Program-made: the position numbers and the translations under genes
In this document: positions 1 to 64,000 of the stretch, piece after piece
Numbering within the stretch: position 1 is the first letter of the stretch
Layout: each line of letters begins with the position of its first letter
NCBI GenBank assembly: GCA_963693365.1
Contig: CAVNZM010000012.1
Span: forward strand, 5,156,389-5,220,388
Length of the DNA: 64,000 nt
Source: Amoebidium appalachense
Taxonomy: Eukaryota; Protista; Ichthyosporea
Reading direction: 5' to 3'
The notes under the pieces: model-generated
What the model saw: the letters and a program-made list of their open reading frames with translations, nothing else
The model's database searches: none
Told to the model about the DNA's origin: nothing

Positions 1-21
1 GTTCCCCCCCTCGTCACCCAG

Positions 22-992
22 ATCGCAGACGGCGAGAACGGGGGTGTCATGATGAACGAATTTCCGAGAGACTTTCCCCCCATGTGGCAGAGAATGAGGG
101 ACGAGGGAAATATGGGGACCAAGGGGGGCTCAAAGGGGGTGGTGGGGGTCAATGTGTCTGAATATCTCGAGTTGATATTCGGGGCCGGGATAGTCAGAGA
201 GGACCTGCCTGTGTGCATGGCTGTGGGCCAACACCGCATCTGGGATAAGTCCGTGACCCCCCCCCCCCCCCCCCCCCCCACCCAACCTCCTAACCCCTCC
301 CCCCTCCCTCCCCCTCCCCCGCCTTTGCCTGAGGATGGGCTCTGGTTTTGGTGCTTACATTCTGTTGTTTCCATGCCATTCTTATTCAGAAACACGTTTT
401 CGTTCTTTATTTCTCACGACTTCAGCTTCGTACAGTATAGTAGCTTCCCCCCTCCCCCCCCCCCTTTCTCACCAATCCGATGATATCCTTAATCAGGAAC
501 ATGTTTTTGTTCTTTGTTTCTCACGACTTTCACTCCCTACAGTATAGTAGCTTCCCCCCGTCCCCCCCCCCCCCCCCCCCCCCCTCTTCTCAGCAATCCG
601 ATGATATCCCGTCACTAAATCCCCTCCCACCCACCAGGCTGCAAGGACAGACCATCACCCCCGATAGTGTCGAGAAAGCCATTACCGAGGTGAAGCTGGC
701 CGACCCGAATTTCCACATGGAGGGGGCTTCATGGACAAACAACATGAGCTGGGTGAAGGGGTACGAGCACGTGCTGGGGCCTATGGCCAAGCTGAGTGCG
801 AAATTTCACGAAAAATGGGACGCAAAAATACGGGAAAATGACCGGGATATTACGCGCACTCGGGAGTATGTGGAGTCGTTGGTGTATGTTTTGCTTATGG
901 AGACGAGCTGCTTTAGGTATTGGGGGAGTGGGGAGTGGACGGATTACGCTATCGAAATTGCAAGGAGGGGGGAGCTGGTGCTCGAAAAATAG
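22..992 (+). CDS. 3' part (last two exons, ~22-248 and ~638-992) of a bacterial-type glycoside hydrolase family 57-like gene; 5' end lies upstream of the window
   Basis: Exon after ...cccag (AG at 20-21) reads IADGENGGVMMNEFP...AVGQHRIWDK. A GT..AG intron (249-637) joins in frame to LQGQ...FHMEGASWTNNMSWVKGYEHVLGPM...LLMETSCFRYWGSGEWTDYA...RRG, with stop TAG at 990-992. I recognise these motifs from cyanobacterial/actinobacterial proteins annotated as GH57 (from memory, not searched). Confidence 0.8.
389..609 (+). repeat. Two diverged tandem copies (~110 bp) inside the GH57-like intron, each containing a poly-C tract
   Basis: ttctttRtttctcacgac...tacagtatagtagcttcccc...caatccgatgatatcc occurs at ~389-488 and ~498-609. 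Confidence 0.8.
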
Positions 993-2963: not shown

Positions 2964-23199
<20,236 letters not shown>

Positions 23200-33392: not shown

Positions 33393-47580
<14,188 letters not shown>

Positions 47581-49284: not shown

Positions 49285-51223
<1,939 letters not shown>

Positions 51224-51414
51224 GTCCGATCGCGAGTGACGTCTCACTTGCGTGACGCATCAGCTGATGCGTGGTGATCCGGCATGTGAAATTTTGCGGA
51301 TCACGGACACCATTGGTGGCTAAATGCCCCTACAATGACAAGTCCCAAATGTAGCCCTAATTTTAAGTATAGCCAGTGGAAGTCTTCTTATAAAAGAGGC
51401 AAATATAACGGTCG

Positions 51415-52423
51415 GTGGCGGCCAGCCCAACCCGAAGCAGCCCCGTGGCCAGTTGTCGGGGAACGAAATCTCGCTTTTCACACCCTGCTCAGATCTCCGC
51501 TTATCGATCGCGACCAAACTTTATGGTCCACCTATACAATCGTCTTAGTATATTTCGCACACATATTCGCCCTTTGTCGGAATACGGGTTGCCCTTACTA
51601 GCTATGGCACCCCCTGATACTGTTACTAATGTCCTCAAATCATTAGATGATTTCCATTACACAACTTGTTGTATGTTTCTCACTGGTCTTTCCACACCTA
51701 TCCCTAGTCTAAGACGCCTTTTTGATTCTCTCTACGCACTCACACCACCATCACAACGCGTACACGAATCTTAAATTTCACGAGCACATCACCCGCCTGT
51801 CCGCTTGTGCCCCGGACCACCCGCTCTTCCGGCTACACGCATCCCCGCCGGATTCGCTCCTCTACCTCTTCCCTTCCCCATCGTCTCTGCCCATTGCCGA
51901 GCGCTATGTGGAATGGCTGCCGGAGGTACGGCTAGATCATAGTGTGAAGATGAATAGTTTCAAGTGACTGTCTATGGCTGATAGATATCTTTTTACTCTA
52001 CGTGTTGAGTCCCTTCCGGTGTTAGGACCGCAAAAACACCAACTACTAGTAGCCTATATGGCGGATACGGTTAGAGAGTCTCGTTCATACATAGATTCGT
52101 TTATTCGTAATGTGGTGTGGTGTAAAAACGCAAAGATGATTATGGCTTGGCGGTGTAATCGGTTTCTGGTGTCTCCTTCTCGTATGTGTAATATGTGTGG
52201 GGGGCGGTTTACTCGCGGCTGCATATCTATCAATAAATGCAACCTGTTAGCTAATGTATTAGAACCGGAGGTTATTGGCGGTTTTATTCTCTTTTCTTCC
52301 TCTCTTCCTCAATATATCCGTTTTAAGATGACTATCCTAGATCACCTTATTAATGCTGCACAGTATGATATTGTGATCCGGTGCCTTAACTTTCTTTCGG
52401 AGCTAGCATCTGCTTACCCATAA
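51415..52423 (+). pseudogene. Decayed 3' portion of a non-LTR retrotransposon ORF (post-RT thumb region plus C-terminal Cys-rich knuckle)
   Basis: RLSIFRTHIRPLSEYGL resembles the R..lyk.fIRP.lEYg motif downstream of LINE RT domains. WRCNRF..CNMCGGRFTR..C...TILDHLIN resembles their C-terminal zinc region. The reading frame is broken at ~51774 and ~51967. Confidence 0.6.
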
Positions 52424-53450
52424 TATGTAATAGGGGTGTCAGATACTACGATGGCGCTCATTGTTGCCTAGCAAGTACATATGTCACTGGCTGCATTTGA
52501 TTGGCTGTGCTGGAAAACGCAGTAGGCCGTCGAATGTGGCTGGGCCTCCGGTAATGTCCACGCAATAAAAAGTGTGTAAACCCCATGGTGCTATGCATCA
52601 GACTGTATGGTGCTATGCATCAGACTGCATTGGACACAAGGCCAAGTCGAGCTCCAAGTTTATTTATTATGGTGGTGTGCGAATATGGACTGTAAGTGTA
52701 TAGCCGTGTATACCCATCTGACACAAAAAACTGAACATCATTCATTGACGTCACCTTATCAATTGCAACCGTTCATCCACACTGTGCCACATACAGATCC
52801 ACGTACAGAGTTTCGTACAGAGTGCACGCACGCGCCAGTTGGTATGTACGTGACGTTCCCCAGTGACTCCAACAAAACCCCGTTCCCCCCGCGGCACACC
52901 GGAATTCATTTTTTTTTATAATGACTTTATTGATAATAATTATGCTCATCAAAAGAGAAGCATGGGAGATATCACAGATATATATCTTAGAGAAGATTTC
53001 GGAATGTCCAAAAATGCCTTACTCTCGGATACGGAGGAGATAAAGACTGACTTTATTGATATGCTCATCAAAAGAGAAGCATGGGAGATATCAACCGGAA
53101 TTCATGTAACTGCATGCGCAGTCATGTTGGTGATGTCACAGGTGACAACCAGTAACTGTTGGTCATGTGATCGATAGGTCAATTCATTCAACTCAATTGA
53201 CTCCAACACGGTACACTCCTACAGCCACCCCCACACGTAAAAGGGCTGATGCAGATAAGCAGATTAATGCACAATAAAGCTTCCATATTCCTGCTAGAGC
53301 CCGATTTTTCGCTTGTATCTCAGGGCCAGGAATCGTTACCTTATGAAATTCAGAAAATTATATGAAAATAATCTTTAACCGAGATTTGTACGCTTGGTCG
53401 TGGGGTTCATGTATTGGGAGGTTGCTAAATGAACTTCAGTTTATTCAGAT

Positions 53451-53527
53451 GAGGTCGCATGGAAACCAGGGAGGGTGGGTAGAAACCAGCTGGTTTCCCC
53501 CCATCCTCCCGGTTTCCATGCGACCTC
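53451..53527. repeat. 77-bp imperfect palindrome/hairpin
   Basis: Outer arms gaggtcgcatggaaacc ... ggtttccatgcgacctc; inner gaaaccag|ctggtttc centred on CAGCTG. Confidence 0.9.
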
Positions 53528-53810
53528 GACAAATTTTCTAAAAACCCATCGCACTAGACTATTGGCGATGTGTCCAATCAAACATCAATGAATGCAGCAC
53601 TGCAGGCTGCTACGGATTTTTTCCGGGGTGCCACCGTACATAGAAACATCAATATTTAAGTAAATCAGCCTTTTGAAACCCAGCAGGATAATAAGGAAAA
53701 TTAAATATACAACACTTCACAAATAATATTTTTAGTGACTATGTAAACAAGACTGGTTCTGGATTATGCAAATAAATACAGTAGACTAAGCGAGTTCTCG
53801 CGTACAAACC

Positions 53811-53964
53811 GAGTCATATTTACCTCGGTCAGCTTGCCTCCATCAGAGTTCACAGGCCTCGTCGGGTGGGTTAATGACCTCCGCACCTTCGGTGCGTCGG
53901 TCATGAACCCACCCGACTCGGCCTGTGAACTCTGATTTCGGCAGCTGACCTCGGTATATGACTC
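53811..53964 (-). repeat. 154-bp imperfect hairpin with regularly spaced TC/TC (GA/GA on minus strand) mismatches and a TTC (GAA) triloop
   Basis: Arms pair as gagtcata/tatgactc, tacc/ggta, ggtcagct/agctgacc, gcc/ggc, atcagagttcacaggcc/ggcctgtgaactctgat, gtcgggtgggtt/aacccacccgac, atgacc/ggtcat and cgcacc/ggtgcg. Confidence 0.95.
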
Positions 53965-54188
53965 TTGACTCAGACTAATACCTATGTACCTTCGACGAGA
54001 CGAGAAGACACTATCAATCGACCTAGCTTTAATTAATATCCAATGGTTAGCTATCTCTTAAATTTTGTAATTTGATTTGCTTCATTCTGATTGGTTGTCA
54101 CACCGCGGGATTTCCCGATTGTTCTTCCAATGACATTTTCTATCACTATCGACAGTTCTCCAATATTAGAACAGAAAACGGTTTATAC

Positions 54189-54285
54189 CCAGATGGCCAG
54201 ATGGCCAGATCAAATTCAGTCTGTGAGCAGGGGGGGGGGGATCCACCTGAAGTCAAAACAATCTGGCCATCTGGCCATGTGGCCA
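54189..54285. repeat. Inverted pair of short 8-bp tandem repeats
   Basis: ccagatggccagatggccagat ... atctggccatctggccatgtgg. Confidence 0.75.
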
Positions 54286-54745
54286 TAGAATAGATTAGCA
54301 TGTAAGGCACTGGCTGCCACCACTGGGGGCCGTGGTTCCGGCAGGAGGGGGGGCACACGTGCAGGGGAGGCAGGGGGTCGGGGGAGGCACACGTGCACAG
54401 GAGGCTGGGGAGAGTGGGGGAACCATGGTTGTGTGATACTATCTATCCCCCATGTATGGCTGAGTTAAGACCATTTGTTCATGTAGCACGATCTTCTAGC
54501 ATGCACGTGTTGGAATGCCACCACTGGGGGGCCTGGTTCCGGCAGGCAGGGGAGCAGGGGAGGCACCCAGTGTGTGGGTGTGCATATGGCAGGGGAGCAG
54601 GGGGGCAGGGGAGCAGGGGGGCAGGGGGGCTGGGGGGCAGGGGGGCTGGGGGGCAGGGGGGCTGGGGAGACTGGCATGCCACTCACGGGGAGGATAGTGT
54701 ATGTTGGCACGTGTGGGTGTGTGGGTGATAAAGGCAGAAGCCACA

Positions 54746-55536
54746 ACACGTGTGGTGTCTAAACAGCCTATAGGCATGCTCCGTGTGCAGGCACCAATTT
54801 CTACCCTCTTCTGGTTGGTGCCAAGAGGCAGCGCCCTACACGTGTGGTGTCTAAACAGCCTATAGGCATGCTCCGTGTGCAGGCACCAATTTCTACCCTC
54901 TTCTGGTTGGTGCCAAGAGGCAGCGCCCTACACGTGTGGTGTCTAAACAGCCTATAGGCATGCTCCGTGTGCAGGCACCAATTTCTACCCTCTTCTGGTT
55001 GGTGCCAAGAGGCAGCGCCCTACACGTGTGGTGTCTAAACAGCCTATAGGCATGCTCCGTGTGCAGGCACCAATTTCTACCCTCTTCTGGTTGGTGCCAA
55101 GAGGCAGCGCCCTACACGTGTGGTGTCTAAACAGCCTATAGGCATGCTCCGTGTGCAGGCACCAATTTCTACCCTCTTCTGGTTGGTGCCAAGAGGCAGC
55201 GCCCTACACGTGTGGTGTCTAAACAGCCTATAGGCATGCTCCGTGTGCAGGCACCAATTTCTACCCTCTTCTGGTTGGTGCCAAGAGGCAGCGCCCTACA
55301 CGTGTGGTGTCTAAACAGCCTATAGGCATGCTCCGTGTGCAGGCACCAATTTCTACCCTCTTCTGGTTGGTGCCAAGAGGCAGCGCCCTACACGTGTGGT
55401 GTCTAAACAGCCTATAGGCATGCTCCGTGTGCAGGCACCAATTTCTACCCTCTTCTGGTTGGTGCCAAGAGGCAGCGCCCTACACGTGTGGTGTCTAAAC
55501 AGCCTATAGGCATGCTCCGTGTGCAGGCACCAATTT
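54746..55536. repeat. Tandem array of ~8.6 identical 92-bp units
   Basis: Unit acacgtgtggtgtctaaacagcctataggcatgctccgtgtgcaggcaccaatttctaccctcttctggttggtgccaagaggcagcgccct starts at 54746, 54838, 54930 ... 55482. Confidence 0.97.
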
Positions 55537-55726
55537 GTTGTGCCTTCCTTTTTTGGTTAGATCTATACCCGGCCAATGGTTAGCAGCCACGGGTTTGTTT
55601 TCATCAAGCTTAGACGTGATACTTTGCCAACCATCAAGGCCGTTTGAGTGAAAATGACCGTTGATTGGAGAGATCTATCCCATTGAGCCTTGGCACCATT
55701 GCTGTAAGCTGCTTTGTACCGTGGCA

Positions 55727-55735
55727 TATAAAAGC
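55727..55735 (+). promoter_or_regulatory. TATA box upstream of the 406-aa ORF
   Basis: atataaaag about 100 bp upstream of ATG 55830, followed by an A/C-rich leader. Confidence 0.5.
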
Positions 55736-55829
55736 AGCACACACGGTCACATTCACTCATTTCAACACTGACACTCAATAGTAAAAGGCGACACACAACA
55801 AACTTGTTTTTCAAACACTCACACGAAAC

Positions 55830-57050
55830 ATGGATTCTTGGAAAGAGGAGCTTCAACAGCTGCAGAAGCGCTTTGATTTTCTGTACACGGACCATTCGTC
55901 TCGCTTAACGGCCCTGCACACCGACGTCACCAGCCTCCGCACCGACCTCACCAGCCTCCGCAGTCAAGTGACCAATGAGAATGCTGCGCGTACCCCCCGA
56001 CCCCCCCAACCCCAGCCCTCTGATGTAGAGGCACGACTGAGGGCAGCCGAAGAGCAGATCAAGACCCTGCAGGCCGAGCTTGCCAGCCTGCAACGGGCTG
56101 CAGCACCCCGTCGGGATGGCCAGGTGGCCTATGAAAACTACATTTTCAGTGGCCCTCGCAAGACTACCATTGCCGCCAACACCACCACTGTGACTGCTGA
56201 CCCCACCCCTGCCGCCAACACCACCACTGTGACTGCCCCCACCCCTGCCGCAAAGACCACCCCTGTGACTGCCCCCACCCCTGTCGCAAAGACCGCCCCT
56301 GTGACTGCCCCCACCCCTGCCGCAAAGACCACCCCTGTGACTGCCCCCACCCCTGTCGCAAAGACCGCCCCTGTGACTGCCCCCACCCCTGCCGCCAAGA
56401 CCACTCCTGCCAAGACCACCCCTACCACCAAGACCACTCCTGCCAAGACCACCCCTACCACCAAGACCACTCCTGCCAAGACCACCCCTACCACCAAGAC
56501 CACTCCTGCCAAGACCACCCCTGCCGCTAAGCCCAGGCCCAAGCACACCAAAACACCTGAGACTTCGTTGCATGACCATACGATGGACCTCGATGCACAG
56601 CTAACTAGTGTGAGGGGGGAGCTCCAGAATGCTCGAGAGCGTGTCAAAGAGGCAAAGGCGGCTGAAGATGAAATGGCGGAGGGCCTGGCCATTGCTGCTG
56701 TGTGTGCAGCCCAAAACACCATAAAAAGCATCCGAAGGAAGATTCTGCGACGGGAGAAGAACTTGAAGGCATACACAGGTGGTAATGAGTCTGTCTCTTC
56801 ACCTGCCTCACCCGCCAAACGCGTCCATGATCAATGTGATTGGGACTCAGATGAAGCATTCAACCCCAAGCGGCTCAAACGACGGGCAAATCAGGTACTC
56901 GATGATATGACAGATGACGAATCTGCGTCTGATCGTGAGTCGGTCGTGTATGACCGCAAACCTGAACCCAAACATAAACAAACTGAAGAAATTCCCCTCA
57001 TTGATCTTGACCAGGAAGAGTTTGACCAGTATGAGCATGAGATGTACTGA
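55830..57050 (+). CDS. Intronless 406-aa orphan: N-terminal coiled coil, T/A/P/K repeats (TAPTPAAKTTPV, KTTPTT), second coiled coil, basic NLS-like motifs and acidic tail
   Basis: Long ORF with an ATG in good context, an upstream TATA box and a T-rich 3' flank; in-frame 36-bp and 33-bp repeats. No family recognised. Confidence 0.75.
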   Translation: MDSWKEELQQLQKRFDFLYTDHSSRLTALHTDVTSLRTDLTSLRSQVTNENAARTPRPPQPQPSDVEARLRAAEEQIKTLQAELASLQRAAAPRRDGQVAYENYIFSGPRKTTIAANTTTVTADPTPAANTTTVTAPTPAAKTTPVTAPTPVAKTAPVTAPTPAAKTTPVTAPTPVAKTAPVTAPTPAAKTTPAKTTPTTKTTPAKTTPTTKTTPAKTTPTTKTTPAKTTPAAKPRPKHTKTPETSLHDHTMDLDAQLTSVRGELQNARERVKEAKAAEDEMAEGLAIAAVCAAQNTIKSIRRKILRREKNLKAYTGGNESVSSPASPAKRVHDQCDWDSDEAFNPKRLKRRANQVLDDMTDDESASDRESVVYDRKPEPKHKQTEEIPLIDLDQEEFDQYEHEMY

Positions 57051-57449
57051 TTTGATTGGTCGACTAAGTGGCATTCTCTTTTGATTTGTATTTGAATTGA
57101 TCGGTCTTGATTTATTTGTTTCTTTTCTCTTTTAGTTTGTATTTGAATATACTCGGTCCAAGTTGATTTGTTCTTTGTAATCTGACTAGACTATCATGTA
57201 CGTACGTACTCTTTTTCTATACAATCACTTGTGTTCATATTAAAGGATTCTGTGTACGTGGACCACGGAAACATACACCATTTTTTGCAGTGCTTCATGC
57301 TATAAAATAACCATGAGAGACACAAACAAATACACTAAGTGTGTACACGTCTACCCATAGGCCCAAGTGTTGACATGTCTGCCCACAGTTCCCTAAGGCT
57401 TAAAGCACACATCTGCCTGTATGCCATAAACTTTACTTTCACCACAAGA

Positions 57450-58480
57450 CACCCACCTAAGTACACTCTGCACCACCCTAAGTACACTGTGGTGCACAGC
57501 CCCACCCTAAGTACACGTCTGCACCACCCTAAGTACACTGTGGTGCACAGCCCCACCCTAAGTACACGTCTGCACCACCCTAAGTACACTGTGGTGCACA
57601 GCCCCACCCTAAGTACACGTCTGCACCACCCTAAGTACACTGTGGTGCACAGCCCCACCCTAAGTACACGTCTGCACCACCCTAAGTACACCTCTGCACC
57701 ACCCTAAGTACACGTCTGCACCACCCTAAGTACACCTCTGCACCACCCTAAGTACACCTCTGCACCACCCTAAGTACACCTCTGCACAGCCCTAAGTACA
57801 CCTCTGCACAGCCCCACCCTAAGTACACTCTGCACCACCCTAAGTACACGTCTGCACCACCCTAAGTACACTCTGCACAGCCCCACCCTAAGTACACGTC
57901 TGCACCACCCTAAGTACACTCTGCACAGCCCCACCCTAAGTACACGTCTGCACCACCCTAAGTACACGTCTGCACCACCCTAAGTACACCTCTGCACCAC
58001 CCTAAGTACACGTCTGCACCACCCTAAGTACACCTCTGCACCACCCTAAGTACACGTCTGCACCACCCTAAGTACACCTCTGCACCACCCTAAGTACACG
58101 TCTGCACCACCCTAAGTACACGTCTGCACCACCCTAAGTACACCTCTGCACCACCCTAAGTACACGTCTGCACCACCCTAAGTACACCTCTGCACCACCC
58201 TAAGTACACGTCTGCACCACCCTAAGTACACTCTGCACAGCCCCACCCTAAGTACACGTCTGCACCACCCTAAGTACACTCTGCACAGCCCCACCCTAAG
58301 TACACTCTGCACCACCCTAAGTACACGTCTGCACAGCCCCACCCTTTAAGTACACGTCTGCACAGCCCCACCCTTTAAGTACACGTCTGCACCATCCTAA
58401 GTACACGTCTGCACAGCCCCACCCTTTAAGTACACGTCTGCACAGCCCCACCCTAAGTACACTCAATGTTAAGTACACCT
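57450..58480. repeat. Modular minisatellite built on a 21-28 bp unit (caccaccctaagtacac[g/c]tctg and variants)
   Basis: About 40 copies of the core cctaagtacac, with variant spacers (gtctg, ctctg, tctg, tgtggtg; caccacc vs cacagccccacc) arranged in higher-order blocks. Confidence 0.95.
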
Positions 58481-58541
58481 GCACACAAGCACTAGAATAG
58501 CCTGAGGCTACTCTCTAATAACGGCCCCTTTTTTCACCGTG

Positions 58542-59288
58542 TCAAGGCCAGTTGATATCTCCGTCTGAAGACTCGGAAGACGCCCCAGAGCTGCTGGCTT
58601 CACTGGCTCGTGCCCTTTTCTGCTGTCCCCGTGTCAAGGTCTTGGACTCGGAAGACGAGTGCTCCTCAGAAGACGAGTACTCCTCAGGTCCCCATAGCAA
58701 GGTCTTGAACCAAGGAGGCACTTCCTCCTGTACCTCCGACCCAGAGCTTTTGACTTCCTCTCGTGTCCTCTTCTGCTGTCTTCGTGGTTTCTCCCGTGTC
58801 TTGGACCCCTGTGTGAAGGTCTTCCAGTTGAACCAAGGAGGCACTGGAGAATGGTGCTCCTCCTCCGACCCAGAGCTTCTGACTTCCTCTCGTGTCCTCT
58901 TCTGCTGTCTTCGTGGTTTCTCCCGTGTCTTGGACCCCTGTGTGATGTGCAAACGTGAGCGCTGCAGGGGCAGGGGGGCCAAGTCCACGGGATAGGAGCT
59001 GCCATGCTCGCCAGCACGAAGTGCAGGTGCCGCTGCCAGGACAGGGGGTGCCACGGTCAGCGCTGGGGGTGCCACGGTCAGCGCTGGGGGTGCCACGGTC
59101 AGCGCTGGGGGTGCCACGGTTGCTGCTGTAGTGGTGCGCTTGCTTAAAGCCATGCGGGCGTGCCTAGCAAGGGCGCACGCGAAACGGGTCTGGGTGTCCC
59201 GCAGGACCTTTGCATCCTCCTCCAAAGTCTTGAGTCTTGTCTCTATTTTTTTAGCGCGCCTTTCTAGATCTTTGATGTTAGAACTCAT
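58542..59288 (-). CDS. Intronless orphan: N-terminal coiled coil, (TVAPPAL)n repeat, duplicated basic segment and Ser/acidic tail
   Basis: Part of ORF 58542-59408; likely start MSSNIKDLERR at 59288 (alternative Met at 59342). Contains in-frame 21-bp repeats and a duplication of TQGSKTREKPRRQQKRTREEV.SSGSE..VPPWF. Confidence 0.65.
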   Translation of the reverse strand: MSSNIKDLERRAKKIETRLKTLEEDAKVLRDTQTRFACALARHARMALSKRTTTAATVAPPALTVAPPALTVAPPALTVAPPVLAAAPALRAGEHGSSYPVDLAPLPLQRSRLHITQGSKTREKPRRQQKRTREEVRSSGSEEEHHSPVPPWFNWKTFTQGSKTREKPRRQQKRTREEVKSSGSEVQEEVPPWFKTLLWGPEEYSSSEEHSSSESKTLTRGQQKRARASEASSSGASSESSDGDINWP

Positions 59289-59340
59289 TTTCGTGACAGT
59301 TGGATGTACGTTGTGTGCCAAGGGAGAAGTTGTCACTGAC

Positions 59341-59871
59341 ATGTACACCCCCGCCCTCGAATACTGCCCCTTGTGCAGCTGCCGCCGCCGCCCAGCTTCG
59401 CCCGGCACACCCCAGGCCTACGTGGCCGCCGACCTCCCCCTCCGCTTCCATTCCTGTCCTTGTCCACACTGCGTGCACGTCTTTGCACGCCCTGCCACCG
59501 TGCTCGTGTGTGCCGACTGCCACACACTCGTCCTGCAGCATCAGCATGGTGTGGACGGCTGCGCGAGGAGGCTTGTTGGCCGTAGACGACAGCTGCGACC
59601 GGGTTTGGCCCCCCGAAGACTTGTTCCTGCCCCACAAGCCCACACAAACACCCATTTTTCTCCCCAACCCCCACCATGCACATCTCTTCCACCAAGCCCA
59701 TACCCATCCCCAAGCCCGCTCACACCGCCTGTTAAAGATACTGTATGCAAGAATTTAGAAGTTGAAGACCCCAACTCCCCCCAGGGTGAGTGGTTGTGGA
59801 TGCTTTTCCCCTCTGGGTGGCAAAATGTGTGGGTGCCGGCCACCCCGGGCACCCCGCAAAATAAATCGTGA
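59341..59871 (+). CDS. Possible small Cys-rich (zinc ribbon-like) orphan protein
   Basis: From ATG 59341: CPLC...CPCPHCVHVFARPATVLVCADCHTLVLQ, loosely like the eS27 zinc ribbon. Divergent from the neighbouring ORF. Confidence 0.35.
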   Translation: MYTPALEYCPLCSCRRRPASPGTPQAYVAADLPLRFHSCPCPHCVHVFARPATVLVCADCHTLVLQHQHGVDGCARRLVGRRRQLRPGLAPRRLVPAPQAHTNTHFSPQPPPCTSLPPSPYPSPSPLTPPVKDTVCKNLEVEDPNSPQGEWLWMLFPSGWQNVWVPATPGTPQNKS

Positions 59872-59892
59872 AGACTTGGCATCTGTACATCT

Positions 59893-59925
<33 letters not shown>

Positions 59926-60495
59926 ACACACACACACCACACACACACCACACACACACACCACACACATGCACACACACACACACACCACACACACACA
60001 CACACACACCACACACACACCACACACATGCACACCACACACACCACACACACCACACACACACACCACACACACACACACCACACACGCACACACACAC
60101 CACACACACACACCACACACATGCACACCACACACACACCACACACACACACACCACACACGCATACGCACATGCATGTTTCAGATACGTCCAAGTGTGG
60201 TTATGTATTGACTTTTGTGTTTATTCACTCTTGCTGTCGTTAAGTCTCGCTTACATGTTAGGGTTCAGATACATAGATGATGTTTGCACCAAATCGTGCT
60301 TATGAGAAGACATCGTAAGAAACAAACGATGGGATATTTGCGCTGGTTTGCACATTTGCACATGTATGGGTTGGGGCATGTCATAGCATCTCACATTGTG
60401 GTACTTGTACACACTGCCCTGTCTATATTTGTCTATTGGGTATAGCATTCCTCTCTCCCATACACACTCACCCACCCAGCAATCACCCCACACCA

Positions 60496-61479
60496 CTATC
60501 CTGGTCGAATGCACACCCACACCTCATTCACCGCAACGGTGTTTTCTCCATTGCCTCCTATGACTACACGCAAAGGTTTCTCGTTGTCCTTAAATTGCAG
60601 TTGCCACAGCTGCTTGGAGGTGGCCTCGTCGGATGCGATGTGTATTTTAGAACCCTTGTTTGTTACTTGCACTATGACATGCTTCACGTTGTAGTAGATG
60701 TATGGGGGGTGCGGAGATCGATCGACAGACACCCAGATCTCGCACTGCTCTCCCGCTGTCTCCGACTGGGGGCTGCTTGTGGCTACCACCTGCTCCGTGA
60801 AGGCCACCTGGTCGTCGACGTCGACGGAACTGTGGTCCTCGGACACGAGCGGCTCGCGTGCTGCTTCGCACACCTGGCTGCTTGGGGGCGCTGCTGCTTT
60901 CTCCTTATCCGCTGCCTCCGTGGTCTCTTCCGTGTCCAAATCCGGAAAAGAGAGTGGTCGCCAGGGCGCATTGGGTTCGGGGTTGACTGCCACTGGTAGG
61001 CGCAGGGACGTGGGTTTTTTGGAGGCCCCCATCTTGTTTGGGCGTATGTTGCGCCCACATCTTTTTGGATTCGCCCCTGCCTTCCAATAAAATGCATCCT
61101 GTTGCTTTTGTACCACGCCGCTGGCCGCGGCACCCGAAGTCTTGTACGGGAGAATCCTGCGTAGCGGGATCTTGCCCGGTGGTGGTGGCCATGTTGTCTG
61201 CAACGGGTACACTCGCACGTCCTTGCTGCACAGGGGCGGTGCGTGCACAGCTGCAAGAGGGGGTTGAGAAGGCTGTGCATGCACGCAGTCGTCTTTGAGC
61301 GGTATTGCGCGTGCGGGTTTTGTGTTGGCGGGGAACGAGTGCATGTTGGCTGGGGGCGAGTGCATGTCGAATTCGCCGAAGACGGGAACGCCCATGAGCG
61401 CTGCCTCGCTGGCCGGTGTTGTCGCTTGGAAGAGCTTGTCGCGCAGGCGCCACAGGTTAACGTTTGGCTTGTGGTTCAT
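60496..61479 (-). CDS. Intronless 327-aa hypothetical protein
   Basis: ATG-initiated long ORF of non-repetitive composition with a globular-looking C-terminus. TATA-like (tataa) and CCAAT motifs lie upstream at ~61525-61555 on the minus strand. Confidence 0.55.
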   Translation of the reverse strand: MNHKPNVNLWRLRDKLFQATTPASEAALMGVPVFGEFDMHSPPANMHSFPANTKPARAIPLKDDCVHAQPSQPPLAAVHAPPLCSKDVRVYPLQTTWPPPPGKIPLRRILPYKTSGAAASGVVQKQQDAFYWKAGANPKRCGRNIRPNKMGASKKPTSLRLPVAVNPEPNAPWRPLSFPDLDTEETTEAADKEKAAAPPSSQVCEAAREPLVSEDHSSVDVDDQVAFTEQVVATSSPQSETAGEQCEIWVSVDRSPHPPYIYYNVKHVIVQVTNKGSKIHIASDEATSKQLWQLQFKDNEKPLRVVIGGNGENTVAVNEVWVCIRPG

Positions 61480-62046
61480 AGCTGCAAGTTTGCAAGACTG
61501 GCAGCATCCGAAGCAGTGATGGGGTTATATGGGTCCTATATCCAATTTGATTGGTCCCAGGCTTTGCCAGGGTGCGAAAGTGTCCTTCGGCGCAATAAAA
61601 TTGCAACCGAAATGAAACGAAATGAATAGGCTATAGAAGAATTAAATGTTGTGAAAGCCACAAGAATGGGAGGAACGCGGTCAATTTGATTTAACGAAAC
61701 AGACATCCCATTACATACAGGGTTTTTGTTTCAGGGTTCTCGATTCGGTTATAACCCTGACCGCGAGTCGCTTTTCCGAACTCTGAGTAGAAACTAAAAC
61801 AACAACCTGTTCAATAGGAAAACAATGGCAAAAATGTTCTTATAAATCGAGTTTAAATATTTCTGTTTTGTTTTCAAATTAATATTTCGGTTTTGTTTTC
61901 AAATTGGCGTTCACATCACATCAATACTGTATCATAACCAGTCAATTTTAAAATAACACAATTGCTGTATCTGAGCCAATCAGACGCTGCATGCCTTGGT
62001 TACAGATCCTTCGGTCATCTTCCACAGGAATACAAGACCCTCTATC

Positions 62047-62143
62047 CGATTGGACATCACGCTGATTGGTCGGCAACTCCAAACGTCTGATTGGTCAACG
62101 CGTCTGATTGGTCAACACGTCTGATTGGTCGGCGCGCTATTGG
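62047..62143 (+). promoter_or_regulatory. Cluster of six ATTGG (CCAAT) boxes, partly as an ~18-bp tandem repeat, upstream of the F-box ORF
   Basis: cgtctgattggtc occurs three times (62084-62130), plus gattggac, ctgattggtc and tattgg. Confidence 0.6.
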
Positions 62144-62219
62144 TGCGGTGGCTCTCAGGGAGGGGTATACCACAGCACAGCTTTCAAACTTCACTCTCCA
62201 TACGAGCGCGTTCATCACA

Positions 62220-63686
62220 ATGGGCGCCGATCAGTCCACCCTTTCTCCCAGCGCGCAACAGCTGGTCTTGGGCAACCACTACCTGCTTCTGTACATCTGC
62301 TCCTTCCTGGATGCACGCTCACGTCGCAGCATTGCGCTCACCTGCCGAGCGCTTCGCCACGTACACGAGGCAGAGCTGGCGCGCCCGAACAGCCACATGC
62401 GCGTCGACCTGTCCAAAGGTCCGAAGTCAATCGAGTTTGCCACGCGCGTCCGTGCCACCCACGTCCTTGCCACCACTGCTGACTACAAGCGCCTTGCCGA
62501 GCTTCCGCCCATGCGCTTCGTTCTCCACATGGTTCTTGATGAGTACCGGGACCTGGCCAACCACCATGCAAAGGCTGCCCATAACCACCGCTACACCAGC
62601 ACGGAGCCCATCTACCCAGACCTGTTTCCCAACCTCAAGGTCGCAGAGGTCAACTCCTTCAAGTGCCGCACCCCCCTTGTCGCCCCCTTCGCCTTGCTGG
62701 GCCGCGCTATCCAGAACCTGACGAGTCTGACCCTTGCCTTCTCTGCCACTCCCAGGCCCACACCTGGTGTAGTCATGGATCTTGCTGCGCTCGAAAACCT
62801 GGCCCATCTGCACGTCCACCTGTGCACGCGTGTGAACCCCTCGAACATCTACGCCATCCCCAGCACGGCGCTGCATGTGCCTGCGGGCCTTGTGAAACTG
62901 CATCTGGACTACCGCTTCCGCTCCATGTGCGGCCACCAGTACGGCTACGGCAGCGGCGGCTCCGCTCCCGGTATCCACAACATACACAACATCGAGTCCT
63001 GCGTCAACATGCGCAATGTGCACGTGTGCGTCTTTGGCATGGTGGTGTTCGACACCATCAATCGTGCCCACCGTGTCGAGCTGCTGTGCTCACAGGCCCG
63101 CGGCACGCTGCGCGGGTGCACCAGCGTCCAGATCGGCCAGGAGGTGCGCGACATCGAGATCACCACCACCGGGGACAGCGCCAGTGACTACCCAGGCAAC
63201 CGGCTCCTTGTGGCCGGCGCCCGCGAGTTCGAGTGCTTCCATCCCGCCCACAACTGGGCGCTGCAGGACGTCCATGTGCTGGAGATCATGCACGTGCCCC
63301 ACAGCCCGCGCGCGCTGGCGGCCATCGCGCAGGCCGTCAACCTGCGCTCGCTGACCGTCACGGCGCCCATGTTCAGCGACAGGGAGCTCGTCTACCACAT
63401 GCCCCCGACCATCGAGATGGTGAACTTCAGGCACGTGCGCCTGGTCGTGCTCGCAGACCCCAGCGGGCTCATCCGCCCGCTTGTGTTTTCCAGCGACTGC
63501 GACCTGGTCCTCTACAACCACTGGCTCCTCCGTGCGGCCGGGTTCCTGATGGACTCGAAGTGGGACCGGTTCATGACACGGCTGCTCCACATCACGCAGT
63601 GCGACATGCCGTGGGCGCTCGGGCGGAAGCTGCAGTACATGGGCGACAAGTCGTACAGGCACCTGCCGTTCCCCGAGGGGGTGTAG
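62220..63686 (+). CDS. Intronless F-box protein (~488 aa) with an N-myristoylation signal and LRR-like C-terminal region
   Basis: First ATG at 62220 gives MGADQS (MGxxxS), then LVLGNHYLLLYICSFLDARSRRSIALTCRALR (F-box-like), then LxxLxL segments (FPNLKVAEV, NLTSLTL, NLAHLHV, NLRSLTV). Strong C/G bias at third codon positions. Confidence 0.75.
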   Translation: MGADQSTLSPSAQQLVLGNHYLLLYICSFLDARSRRSIALTCRALRHVHEAELARPNSHMRVDLSKGPKSIEFATRVRATHVLATTADYKRLAELPPMRFVLHMVLDEYRDLANHHAKAAHNHRYTSTEPIYPDLFPNLKVAEVNSFKCRTPLVAPFALLGRAIQNLTSLTLAFSATPRPTPGVVMDLAALENLAHLHVHLCTRVNPSNIYAIPSTALHVPAGLVKLHLDYRFRSMCGHQYGYGSGGSAPGIHNIHNIESCVNMRNVHVCVFGMVVFDTINRAHRVELLCSQARGTLRGCTSVQIGQEVRDIEITTTGDSASDYPGNRLLVAGAREFECFHPAHNWALQDVHVLEIMHVPHSPRALAAIAQAVNLRSLTVTAPMFSDRELVYHMPPTIEMVNFRHVRLVVLADPSGLIRPLVFSSDCDLVLYNHWLLRAAGFLMDSKWDRFMTRLLHITQCDMPWALGRKLQYMGDKSYRHLPFPEGV

Positions 63687-63696
63687 GGGGGGGTGT

Positions 63697-64000
63697 TTAG
63701 AGCCCTAGACACTTAGTCATGTGATTGTAGTCGAATCTGTGGGCCTTGATGGTCACCTTGTTTGCACTTAGTTTCTTTGTACTTACTGGTTTCATCATGA
63801 ATATTTGCCGTAGAACTTTGCCAAATACACATAGGTTCATGTGAACCTCCATGTCTGACCCTTGTCGTCTCACCCATTCGGAGTACAGTGCATAGAGAGA
63901 CGATGTTTTTACGGGGGATCCCGGGGGGAACTTGTGCCTGTTGTGTTCGTCTTTCAAAAATTCAATAAAAAACTGCTTGACCAGCTCGTATCCCTTGCTG
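63697..64000 (-). CDS. C-terminal end of a probable D5-like primase-helicase (winged-helix tail), ORF open beyond the window edge
   Basis: The frame is open from 64000: SKGYELVKQFFIEFL...VKTSSLYALYSEWVRRQG...MNLCVFGKVL. This matches the s.LY..Y..W....G......FGk.L pattern at the end of NCLDV/Polinton/phage D5-P4 helicases. Only about 100 aa are visible. Confidence 0.5.
   Translation of the reverse strand, partial: SKGYELVKQFFIEFLKDEHNRHKFPPGSPVKTSSLYALYSEWVRRQGSDMEVHMNLCVFGKVLRQIFMMKPVSTKKLSANKVTIKAHRFDYNHMTKCLGL

What the first reader, a model, noticed from the sequence alone, without database searches (positions are those of the whole stretch)
53400..64000. Abrupt switch to a compact, intronless, virus-like gene block with hairpins and repeat arrays: probable terminus of an endogenous DNA virus or Polinton-like element
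Seen: the host genes in this window have up to about 26 exons each. From 55.8 kb there are instead five or six intronless ORFs packed closely (divergent ATGs 52 bp apart at 59288/59341; convergent stops 10 bp apart at 63686/63697). They are preceded by long hairpins and an identical 92-bp array, and end in a D5-helicase-like C-terminus. Established: D5 primase-helicases, F-box proteins and MGxxxS-myristoylated proteins are typical of nucleocytoviruses and Polinton-like viruses, and terminal regions of such genomes are enriched in repeats and orphan host-interaction genes. Inference: this is the left end of a large integrated element whose core genes lie downstream.
Basis: partly seen in the sequence, partly recalled or inferred. 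Interest (0 to 1): 0.8.

Follow-up and report, generated by a model that had tools for sequence, protein, structure and literature searches.

The report
Multi-copy endogenous virus end in Amoebidium
This is one end of a repeated, intron-free gene block in the genome of the protist Amoebidium, likely an integrated polinton-like DNA virus of a kind already reported in this genus, so it is real but largely ordinary.

Summary
The host is Amoebidium: the window's 16-exon CDC45 matches a EukProt A. parasiticum protein at 617 of 619 residues. Six intronless frames lie at 55.8-64 kb. The last is a winged-helix domain that best fits the C-terminus of a D5-like primase-helicase (Pfam E 0.003, below cut-off; ESM Atlas 0.96); its ATPase part is outside the window. 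Contigs of public DNA runs show 60.2-64 kb is a repeat: about 50 times single-copy depth in two runs, about 13 times in a third (rough). Endogenous 'adintoviruses', giant-virus insertions and Plavaka giant repeats are already published for Amoebidium (PMC11244446). A shared end and tens of similar copies fit a polinton-like virus best (0.55), then a Plavaka-type repeat (0.2) or a giant-virus fragment (0.15). Capsid, polymerase, integrase, right end and target duplication could not be tested. Low novelty.

The parts
33393..47577 (+). Host CDC45 gene, 16 coding blocks (context; identifies the host genus)
   Evidence: 617 of 619 residues match P0001 = EukProt EP00123_Amoebidium_parasiticum_P010126; Pfam CDC45
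51526..52585 (+). Very high-copy repeat, likely the 3' remnant of a non-LTR retrotransposon (context, not part of the element)
   Evidence: Summed contig depth about 1500-2000 times single-copy, rising towards the 3' end; broken frames; AATAAA at 52564. No Pfam support; the LINE label is recalled
53385..53968 (.). Separate, lower-copy repeat carrying the two long hairpins (53451-53527; 53811-53964); other copies have different sequence at 53574-53577; right end not fixed (53968 to about 54028)
   Evidence: Repeat contigs begin at 53385 in X1 and X2; depth 4.8-18.7 times single-copy and 0.1-1.4 times the gene block; single-copy-like depth at 54029; hairpins
54077..55536 (.). Inferred left terminal region of the element; candidate terminal repeat
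   Evidence: X17 contig ends and an X2 joint lands at 54077; X2 bin depth jumps 634 to 29769; depth at 54139 is 2.0-2.9 times the gene block in 3 of 3 calibrated runs.
54184..54287 (.). 27-bp inverted repeat whose loop differs between copies
   Evidence: z -5.2; other loop letters in X1, X6, X17
54588..54667 (.). G-rich 8-bp tandem array (10 copies)
54746..55536 (.). 92-bp tandem array, 8.6 identical copies; the unit has no unusual fold
   Evidence: z -0.8
55830..57050 (+). ORF1, 406 aa: N-terminal coiled coil, Thr/Pro/Ala repeats, charged tail; orphan
   Evidence: (coiled-coil hits below cut-off)
57473..58462 (.). 22/29/51-bp tandem array between convergent ORF1 and ORF2
58542..59342 (-). ORF2, 266 aa (248 aa from the ATG at 59288): coiled coil plus internal repeats; orphan
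59341..59871 (+). ORF3, 176 aa, Cys-rich (CxxC motifs) then Pro-rich; least certain frame
   Evidence: no family; overlapping alternative frames
60496..61479 (-). ORF4, 327 aa; low-complexity N-part, probable beta-rich C-terminal domain
   Evidence: Atlas lead only (0.80; CBM32/F5-F8-type at 0.75-0.76); multi-copy
62083..62130 (+). 17-bp tandem repeat with CTGATTGG (CCAAT-box) upstream of ORF5
   Evidence: CTGATTGG 6 times in 54077-64000 vs 2 in 1-50700
62220..63686 (+). ORF5, 488 aa: MGxxxS start, F-box-like domain at residues 22-48, LRR-like motifs; likely captured cargo gene
   Evidence: Pfam F-box-like E 0.0027 whole protein, 0.00014 on residues 1-60, both below cut-off; Atlas 0.94-0.96 to eukaryotic F-box and unnamed clusters; GC3 0.85 vs 0.55-0.66 in neighbours; LRR-like motifs
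63697..64000 (-). ORF6, last 100 codons of a gene that runs out of the window: winged-helix domain, best fit C-terminus of a D5-like primase-helicase
   Evidence: Pfam Pox_D5 E 0.0032 (18.3 bits, cut-off 21.4), RFX_DNA_binding E 0.011; PHROG primase positions 751-819 of 855, E 0.002; Atlas 0.96, 25 of 30 hits in the Pox_D5 set; model pLDDT 74 with winged-helix neighbours

Best explanation
The stretch from about 54077 to the window end is repeated DNA in the Amoebidium genome and is likely the left end of an integrated mid-size polinton-like DNA virus (the 'adintovirus'-type insertions reported in this genus). Shown: the host genus, the intronless frames, the multi-copy state of 54077-54740 and 60200-64000, a shared left edge near 54077, and a winged-helix last domain. 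Inferred: (1) the element integrates through fixed ends by its own integrase or recombinase and has spread to tens of loci; (2) 54077-55536, with its inverted repeat, G-rich array and 92-bp array, is a terminal repeat that would carry replication or packaging signals; (3) ORF1-4 are terminal accessory genes transcribed by host RNA polymerase II from CCAAT/TATA promoters; (4) ORF5 is a captured, swappable F-box/LRR gene that would hook host proteins to the SCF ubiquitin ligase, perhaps membrane-anchored by myristoylation; (5) ORF6 is the DNA-binding end of a D5-like primase-helicase that would serve viral replication, with capsid, ATPase and integrase genes further right; (6) the copy is likely silenced by 5mC, as published for this class.
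For: Host: CDC45 617/619 identical to EukProt A. parasiticum. Repeat state: single contigs on ORF5 at depth 431 and 497 in X6 vs 6-8 for unique flank contigs; a 1574-nt contig at 207 in X1 vs 13-28; 1316 and 663 variant contigs in X2 and X6 on 3.8 kb, most 95% or more alike; rough ratios 13, 48, 50. Shared left edge at 54077 in X17 and X2. Depth at 54139 is 2.0, 2.7 and 2.9 times the block, as a terminal repeat present twice would give, while the hairpin repeat gives 1.4, 0.1, 0.4. D5-like C-terminus (BFVD neighbours include an iridovirus DNA helicase, prob 0.97, E 0.047, and a Satyrvirus D5-like helicase-primase, E 0.33). Of 12 indels shown, 11 lie between genes (12 more not shown). ORF5 and ORF6 have other neighbours in other copies (loose ends at 63652-63696). 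PMC11244446 reports ~30-kb adintovirus insertions with terminal repeats, 44 in one genome and 4 in another; primase-SF3 helicases are common replicases of polinton-like viruses.
Against: No capsid, packaging ATPase, pPolB or integrase lies in the window, so no defining gene was seen. All D5 hits are below curated cut-offs, RFX scores nearly as well in Pfam, and the top Atlas clusters are small 86-122-aa proteins. The text read lists D5 primase among giant-virus genes, not among adintovirus genes. Summed contig depth is not a copy number and could include free viral DNA. ORF4 differences show no synonymous excess (6 of 20, 23.5% expected, p 0.32; only the 40 best-supported of 181 places were shown). 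The left edge does not begin with the AG recalled for Polintons. No GC step.
Confidence: 0.55

Rival explanations
1. It is part of a Plavaka-associated giant repeat or a similar capsid-less giant transposon: a cargo cluster of intron-poor genes moved by a transposase or tyrosine recombinase outside the window.
For: [quoted passage not shown] A shared end, high copy number, modular gene neighbours and a cellular-type F-box gene fit equally well. Interspersed satellites fit a transposon.
Against: A D5-like domain is a viral/plasmid replicase feature and is not listed for this class in the text read. No recombinase, transposase or tandem gene duplicates in the 10 kb seen.
Confidence: 0.2
2. It is the edge of a giant-virus insertion (Medusavirus/Clandestinovirus-related GEVE), integrated by chance and later duplicated.
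For: D5 primase is named among the GEVE core genes, and 90 + 42 GEVEs are reported. F-box and myristoylated proteins are common in nucleocytoviruses (recalled).
Against: GEVEs are described as highly divergent from one another and of stochastic integration, whereas this block has tens of copies mostly 95% or more alike and a shared left edge.
Confidence: 0.15
3. It is a cluster of host genes or a segmental duplication, ORF6 being an RFX-type host DNA-binding protein and ORF5 a member of a host F-box expansion, next to unrelated small repeats.
For: RFX_DNA_binding E 0.011; RFX domains among fold neighbours (Z 6.2 and 5.4); F-box neighbours are fungal and algal; host-like CA microsatellite and CpG level in 53.4-59.9 kb.
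Against: Tens of copies with strong differences between runs; intronless frames beside a 16-exon host gene; Atlas prefers Pox_D5.
Confidence: 0.07

Closest known systems
Amoebidium 'adintovirus' insertions (Sarre et al. 2024, PMC11244446)
   Same: Same host genus; compact intron-poor block among intron-rich genes; tens of related copies that vary in number between samples; terminal repeats reported there and suspected here.
   Different: [quoted passage not shown]
Polinton-like viruses and group 2 Maverick-Polintons with AEP-SF3 primase-helicase (PMC10120064, PMC7805220, 10.64898/2026.06.19.733378)
   Same: D5-like replicase end, multi-copy endogenous state in a protist, modular accessory genes.
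   Different: No capsid, ATPase or integrase seen; no GC contrast to the host; no sequence relative found in IMG/VR.
Amoebidium giant endogenous viral elements (Mamonoviridae-related; PMC11244446)
   Same: Intron-poor gene blocks that encode D5 primase.
   Different: Those are up to 200 kb, divergent from each other and without fixed ends; this one has many similar copies with a shared edge.
Plavaka-associated giant repeats (PMC11244446)
   Same: Repetitive, intron-poor gene clusters of tens of kb in the same genus.
   Different: No Plavaka transposase, tyrosine recombinase or tandem paralogues in the window.

Membership tests
Polinton-like virus / adintovirus (Polintoviricetes and relatives) | Double jelly-roll major capsid protein and minor capsid protein | not testable with these tools
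   Not among the six frames; sequence right of 64000 not held
Polinton-like virus / adintovirus (Polintoviricetes and relatives) | A32/FtsK-like packaging ATPase | not testable with these tools
   Not in the window; no downstream sequence
Polinton-like virus / adintovirus (Polintoviricetes and relatives) | Replicase: pPolB or primase/PolA-SF3 helicase | tested here: inconclusive
   Only a 100-aa C-terminal winged helix; Pox_D5 E 0.0032 below cut-off, Atlas 0.96, no fold hit at E 0.001 or Z 8; ATPase motifs outside the window
Polinton-like virus / adintovirus (Polintoviricetes and relatives) | rve integrase or tyrosine recombinase | not testable with these tools
   Not in the window
Polinton-like virus / adintovirus (Polintoviricetes and relatives) | Terminal inverted repeats and target-site duplication | tested here: inconclusive
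   Shared left edge at 54077 and 2.0-2.9-fold depth over the block; no second copy in the window; right end not held
Polinton-like virus / adintovirus (Polintoviricetes and relatives) | Multi-copy endogenous state with similar copies | tested here: met
   (rough depth ratios 13, 48, 50)
Nucleocytoviricota giant endogenous viral element | Core genes (NCLDV capsid, PolB, A32, VLTF3, D5) over tens to hundreds of kb | tested here: inconclusive
   Only the D5-like end is seen; length unknown
Nucleocytoviricota giant endogenous viral element | Stochastic, divergent insertions without common ends (as described for Amoebidium) | tested here: inconclusive
   Shared edge and similar copies point the other way, but linkage of the edge to the D5-like gene is inferred
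Plavaka-associated giant repeat | Flanking Plavaka transposase; tandem intron-poor genes with tyrosine recombinases | tested here: inconclusive
   None in the left 10 kb; the right part is not held
F-box protein (SCF substrate adaptor) | N-terminal F-box domain followed by a substrate-binding repeat region | tested here: inconclusive
   F-box-like 22.0 bits vs cut-off 24.3; Atlas 0.94-0.95 to F-box clusters with 119-138 shared features; model unusable, pLDDT 34

The most novel reading that the evidence does not exclude
This is a fourth, uncatalogued class of endogenous virus in Amoebidium: a primase-helicase-type polinton-like virus without pPolB, missed by PolB-based annotation, expanded to about 50 copies in some strains, whose copies swap a host-derived myristoylated F-box cargo gene in and out at a fixed junction beside the helicase gene.
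Probability: 0.15. Interest if true: 0.5.

Novelty: already known. Interest (0 to 1): 0.27.

Why it matters
Endogenous DNA viruses silenced by 5mC are an established feature of Amoebidium, a close unicellular relative of animals, so the finding mostly re-detects a published phenomenon. What it adds is anatomy: a candidate terminus at about 54077, a separate hairpin repeat beside it, and signs that an F-box cargo gene is exchanged between copies. If the element proves to be a primase-helicase type without pPolB, it would extend the catalogue of viruses in this genus and offer a testable virus-borne ubiquitin-ligase adaptor in a culturable host.

Tried and rejected
No whole genome is held, so the downstream genes, right end and target duplication could not be read. 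Sequence searches found no relative: ORF5 near-length, ORF6 against 1.84 billion representatives (0 at E 0.001) and among longer proteins (0 of 18 candidates); none of 5 window proteins looked up is in the 15-billion collection. IMG/VR: no confirmed relative for ORF5, ORF6, ORF1, ORF2; for ORF4 one stretch was counted as a relative but no locus was returned, so it is not used; no match to an 18-nt piece of the 92-bp unit. The one metagenome locus, L001, is a chance match on the strand opposite a bacterial seryl-tRNA-synthetase-like frame (label from my reading of the sequence) and was dropped. Phage tblastn gave only E 0.1-0.3 hits; PDB sequence search only chance Rieske matches. Fold searches with the ORF6 model gave no hit at E 0.001 and best Z 7.2; no solved D5 structure was listed. 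The ORF5 model was unusable. Rfam: 7 matches, all far below gathering scores, generic hairpins. Sigma-70 and terminator scans were at chance level and do not suit a eukaryote. No RNA holder listed for 60200-64000; this says nothing on expression. No empty-site joint appeared among the rows shown (28 joints and 874 loose ends not shown). Earlier scan findings: none. Rejected: 53400 as the element end (depth pattern); a GC or CpG step as a boundary marker; synonymous excess in ORF4 as proof of selection.
Full report
Observation. Six frames lie between 55830 and 64000 and cover 65% of it; four are 250 aa or longer, which 0 of 300 Markov simulations of the block reproduced. The two long hairpins fold far better than shuffles (z -9.9, -13.8) and the 92-bp array has 8.6 identical copies at 54746-55536. 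The switch is less abrupt than stated: simple repeats drop from 17.6% to 1.6% already near 51.1 kb, GC and CpG barely change, and the block itself holds a 1-kb 22-bp array and a CA microsatellite.

Host. One CDC45 exon found a single protein, P0001, which is EukProt EP00123_Amoebidium_parasiticum_P010126. It maps on the window in 16 blocks with 617 of 619 residues identical. The host is therefore Amoebidium (Ichthyosporea); the species label is EukProt's. No whole genome is held for the window.

Proteins. ORF6 (63697-64000, minus strand) is the last 100 codons of a gene that leaves the window. Pfam gives Pox_D5 at E 0.0032 (18.3 bits, cut-off 21.4) and RFX_DNA_binding at E 0.011; PHROGs places it at positions 751-819 of an 855-position primase family (E 0.002); the ESM Atlas scores 0.96 with 25 of 30 hits in the Pox_D5 set, the top three clusters being 86-122 aa long. 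A single-sequence model (pLDDT 74, the other four models 47-50) matches winged-helix domains, without a significant hit: Cdt1/ORC in the PDB, viral helicase-primases among the BFVD rows (best named: iridovirus DNA helicase, E 0.047), best Z 7.2 with RFX5 at 6.2. So 'winged helix' is well supported, 'D5 C-terminus' is the best but not proven reading, and the SF3 ATPase could not be seen. ORF5 has an F-box-like domain just under cut-off, LRR-like motifs and an MGxxxS start (motif only); its Atlas neighbours are fungal and algal or unassigned and its GC3 (0.85) stands apart from its neighbours (0.55-0.66) and CDC45 (0.66), which suggests captured cargo. ORF1-4 are orphans.

Copy number and boundaries. 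Twenty public runs from three studies hold 60200-64000 or part of it; 4 of them were laid on 60200-64000 and 50680-54740. Unique stretches (51142-51555, 52558-52970, 53064-53414) are covered by single contigs at depth 50-59 in X2 and 6-8 in X6, without differences, and 13-28 in X1; X17 does not cover them and was left out of the ratios. On the gene block, single contigs reach 431 and 497 in X6 and 164-207 in X1, and X2 and X6 break into 1316 and 663 variant contigs. Using the ten lowest per-place depths I read for X2 and X6, the block is roughly 48, 50 and (X1) 13 times single-copy. The tool warns that summed contig depth is no copy number, and free viral DNA would also raise it; the many variants argue for genomic copies in X2 and X6. 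Left of the block there are three distinct repeats: a very high-copy one at 51526-52585 whose depth rises to its 3' end (LINE-like; label recalled, no Pfam hit); a hairpin-bearing one from 53385 to about 53968 whose depth does not follow the block (1.4, 0.1, 0.4 times) and whose other copies differ at 53574-53577; and, after a spacer at about single-copy depth (54029), a high-copy sequence whose contigs start at 54077. Loose ends at 63652-63696 in all four runs show that ORF5 and ORF6 each have other neighbours in other copies. Eleven of the 12 indels shown are intergenic, but listed ORF4 substitutions show no synonymous excess (6 of 20; p 0.32).

Comparison with what is known. PMC11244446 (I read the abstract, sections 6-10 and 19, keyword passages, part 1 of 2 of the supplementary legends; no figures) reports three kinds of methylated giant repeats in Amoebidium: giant-virus insertions up to 200 kb with D5 primase, divergent from one another; ~30-kb adintoviruses with terminal repeats, VLTF3, Dam, capsids and PolB, 44 in one genome and 4 in another; and Plavaka-associated clusters up to 50 kb. 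Passages only were read in PMC8502044, PMC10120064, PMC7805220, 10.64898/2026.06.19.733378, 10.64898/2026.05.21.726589 and 10.64898/2026.10.13.758929; they establish that primase-SF3 helicases are common and exchangeable replicases in polinton-like viruses. Five paper searches gave no gene-level description of an Amoebidium element with a D5-like and an F-box gene; figure S4 and the deposited annotations, which I could not see, may contain it. Whether this window derives from a published assembly was not examined.

Mechanism and verdict. Many similar copies with a shared edge fit an element that integrates by its own enzyme; the D5-like end tips this towards a polinton-like virus (0.55) over a capsid-less giant transposon (0.2), a giant-virus fragment (0.15) or host genes (0.07). 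It works like an endogenous polinton-like virus; membership is not shown, since capsid, ATPase, integrase and right end lie outside the window. The phenomenon is published for this genus, so novelty is low; the open possibility is an uncatalogued primase-helicase type with swappable F-box cargo (0.15).

Noticed in passing
window 53385-53968: Separate repeat with two long imperfect hairpins and a 9-nt inverted match between its first bases (53385) and 53800; this copy looks internally deleted or spliced together at 53574-53577. A Helentron-like non-autonomous element is a recalled lead only.
   Followed up: partly
window 51526-52585: Extremely high-copy repeat with a 5'-truncation depth gradient, broken frames, a CxxC motif and a polyadenylation signal; probably a LINE 3' remnant with no Pfam match.
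   Followed up: partly
window 51018-51227: Nested 21-25-bp inverted repeats with mildly raised contig depth; possibly a small MITE.
   Followed up: no
window 60496-63686 vs 53400-59870: CpG o/e is 0.9-1.0 in ORF4 to ORF5 but 0.5-0.65 further left and in ORF6, hinting at modules of different age or origin.
   Followed up: partly
window 61557-61726: An X1 contig skips 168 nt between ORF4 and ORF5: a structural variant of the intergenic region.
   Followed up: no
window 1-989: Coding pieces on the plus strand that I recall as resembling a bacterial glycoside-hydrolase-57-like family; no Pfam hit at E 0.01; possible lateral transfer.
   Followed up: no
window 3959-11215 (minus strand, probably extending further): Multi-exon SWI3/SMARCC-like host gene (Myb/SANT hit; family label from my reading of the exons); exon count not determined.
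   Followed up: no
window 7401-7978 and 12242-13330: Tandem repeats of 288 bp (2 copies) and about 225-234 bp (4-5 copies) in host introns.
   Followed up: no
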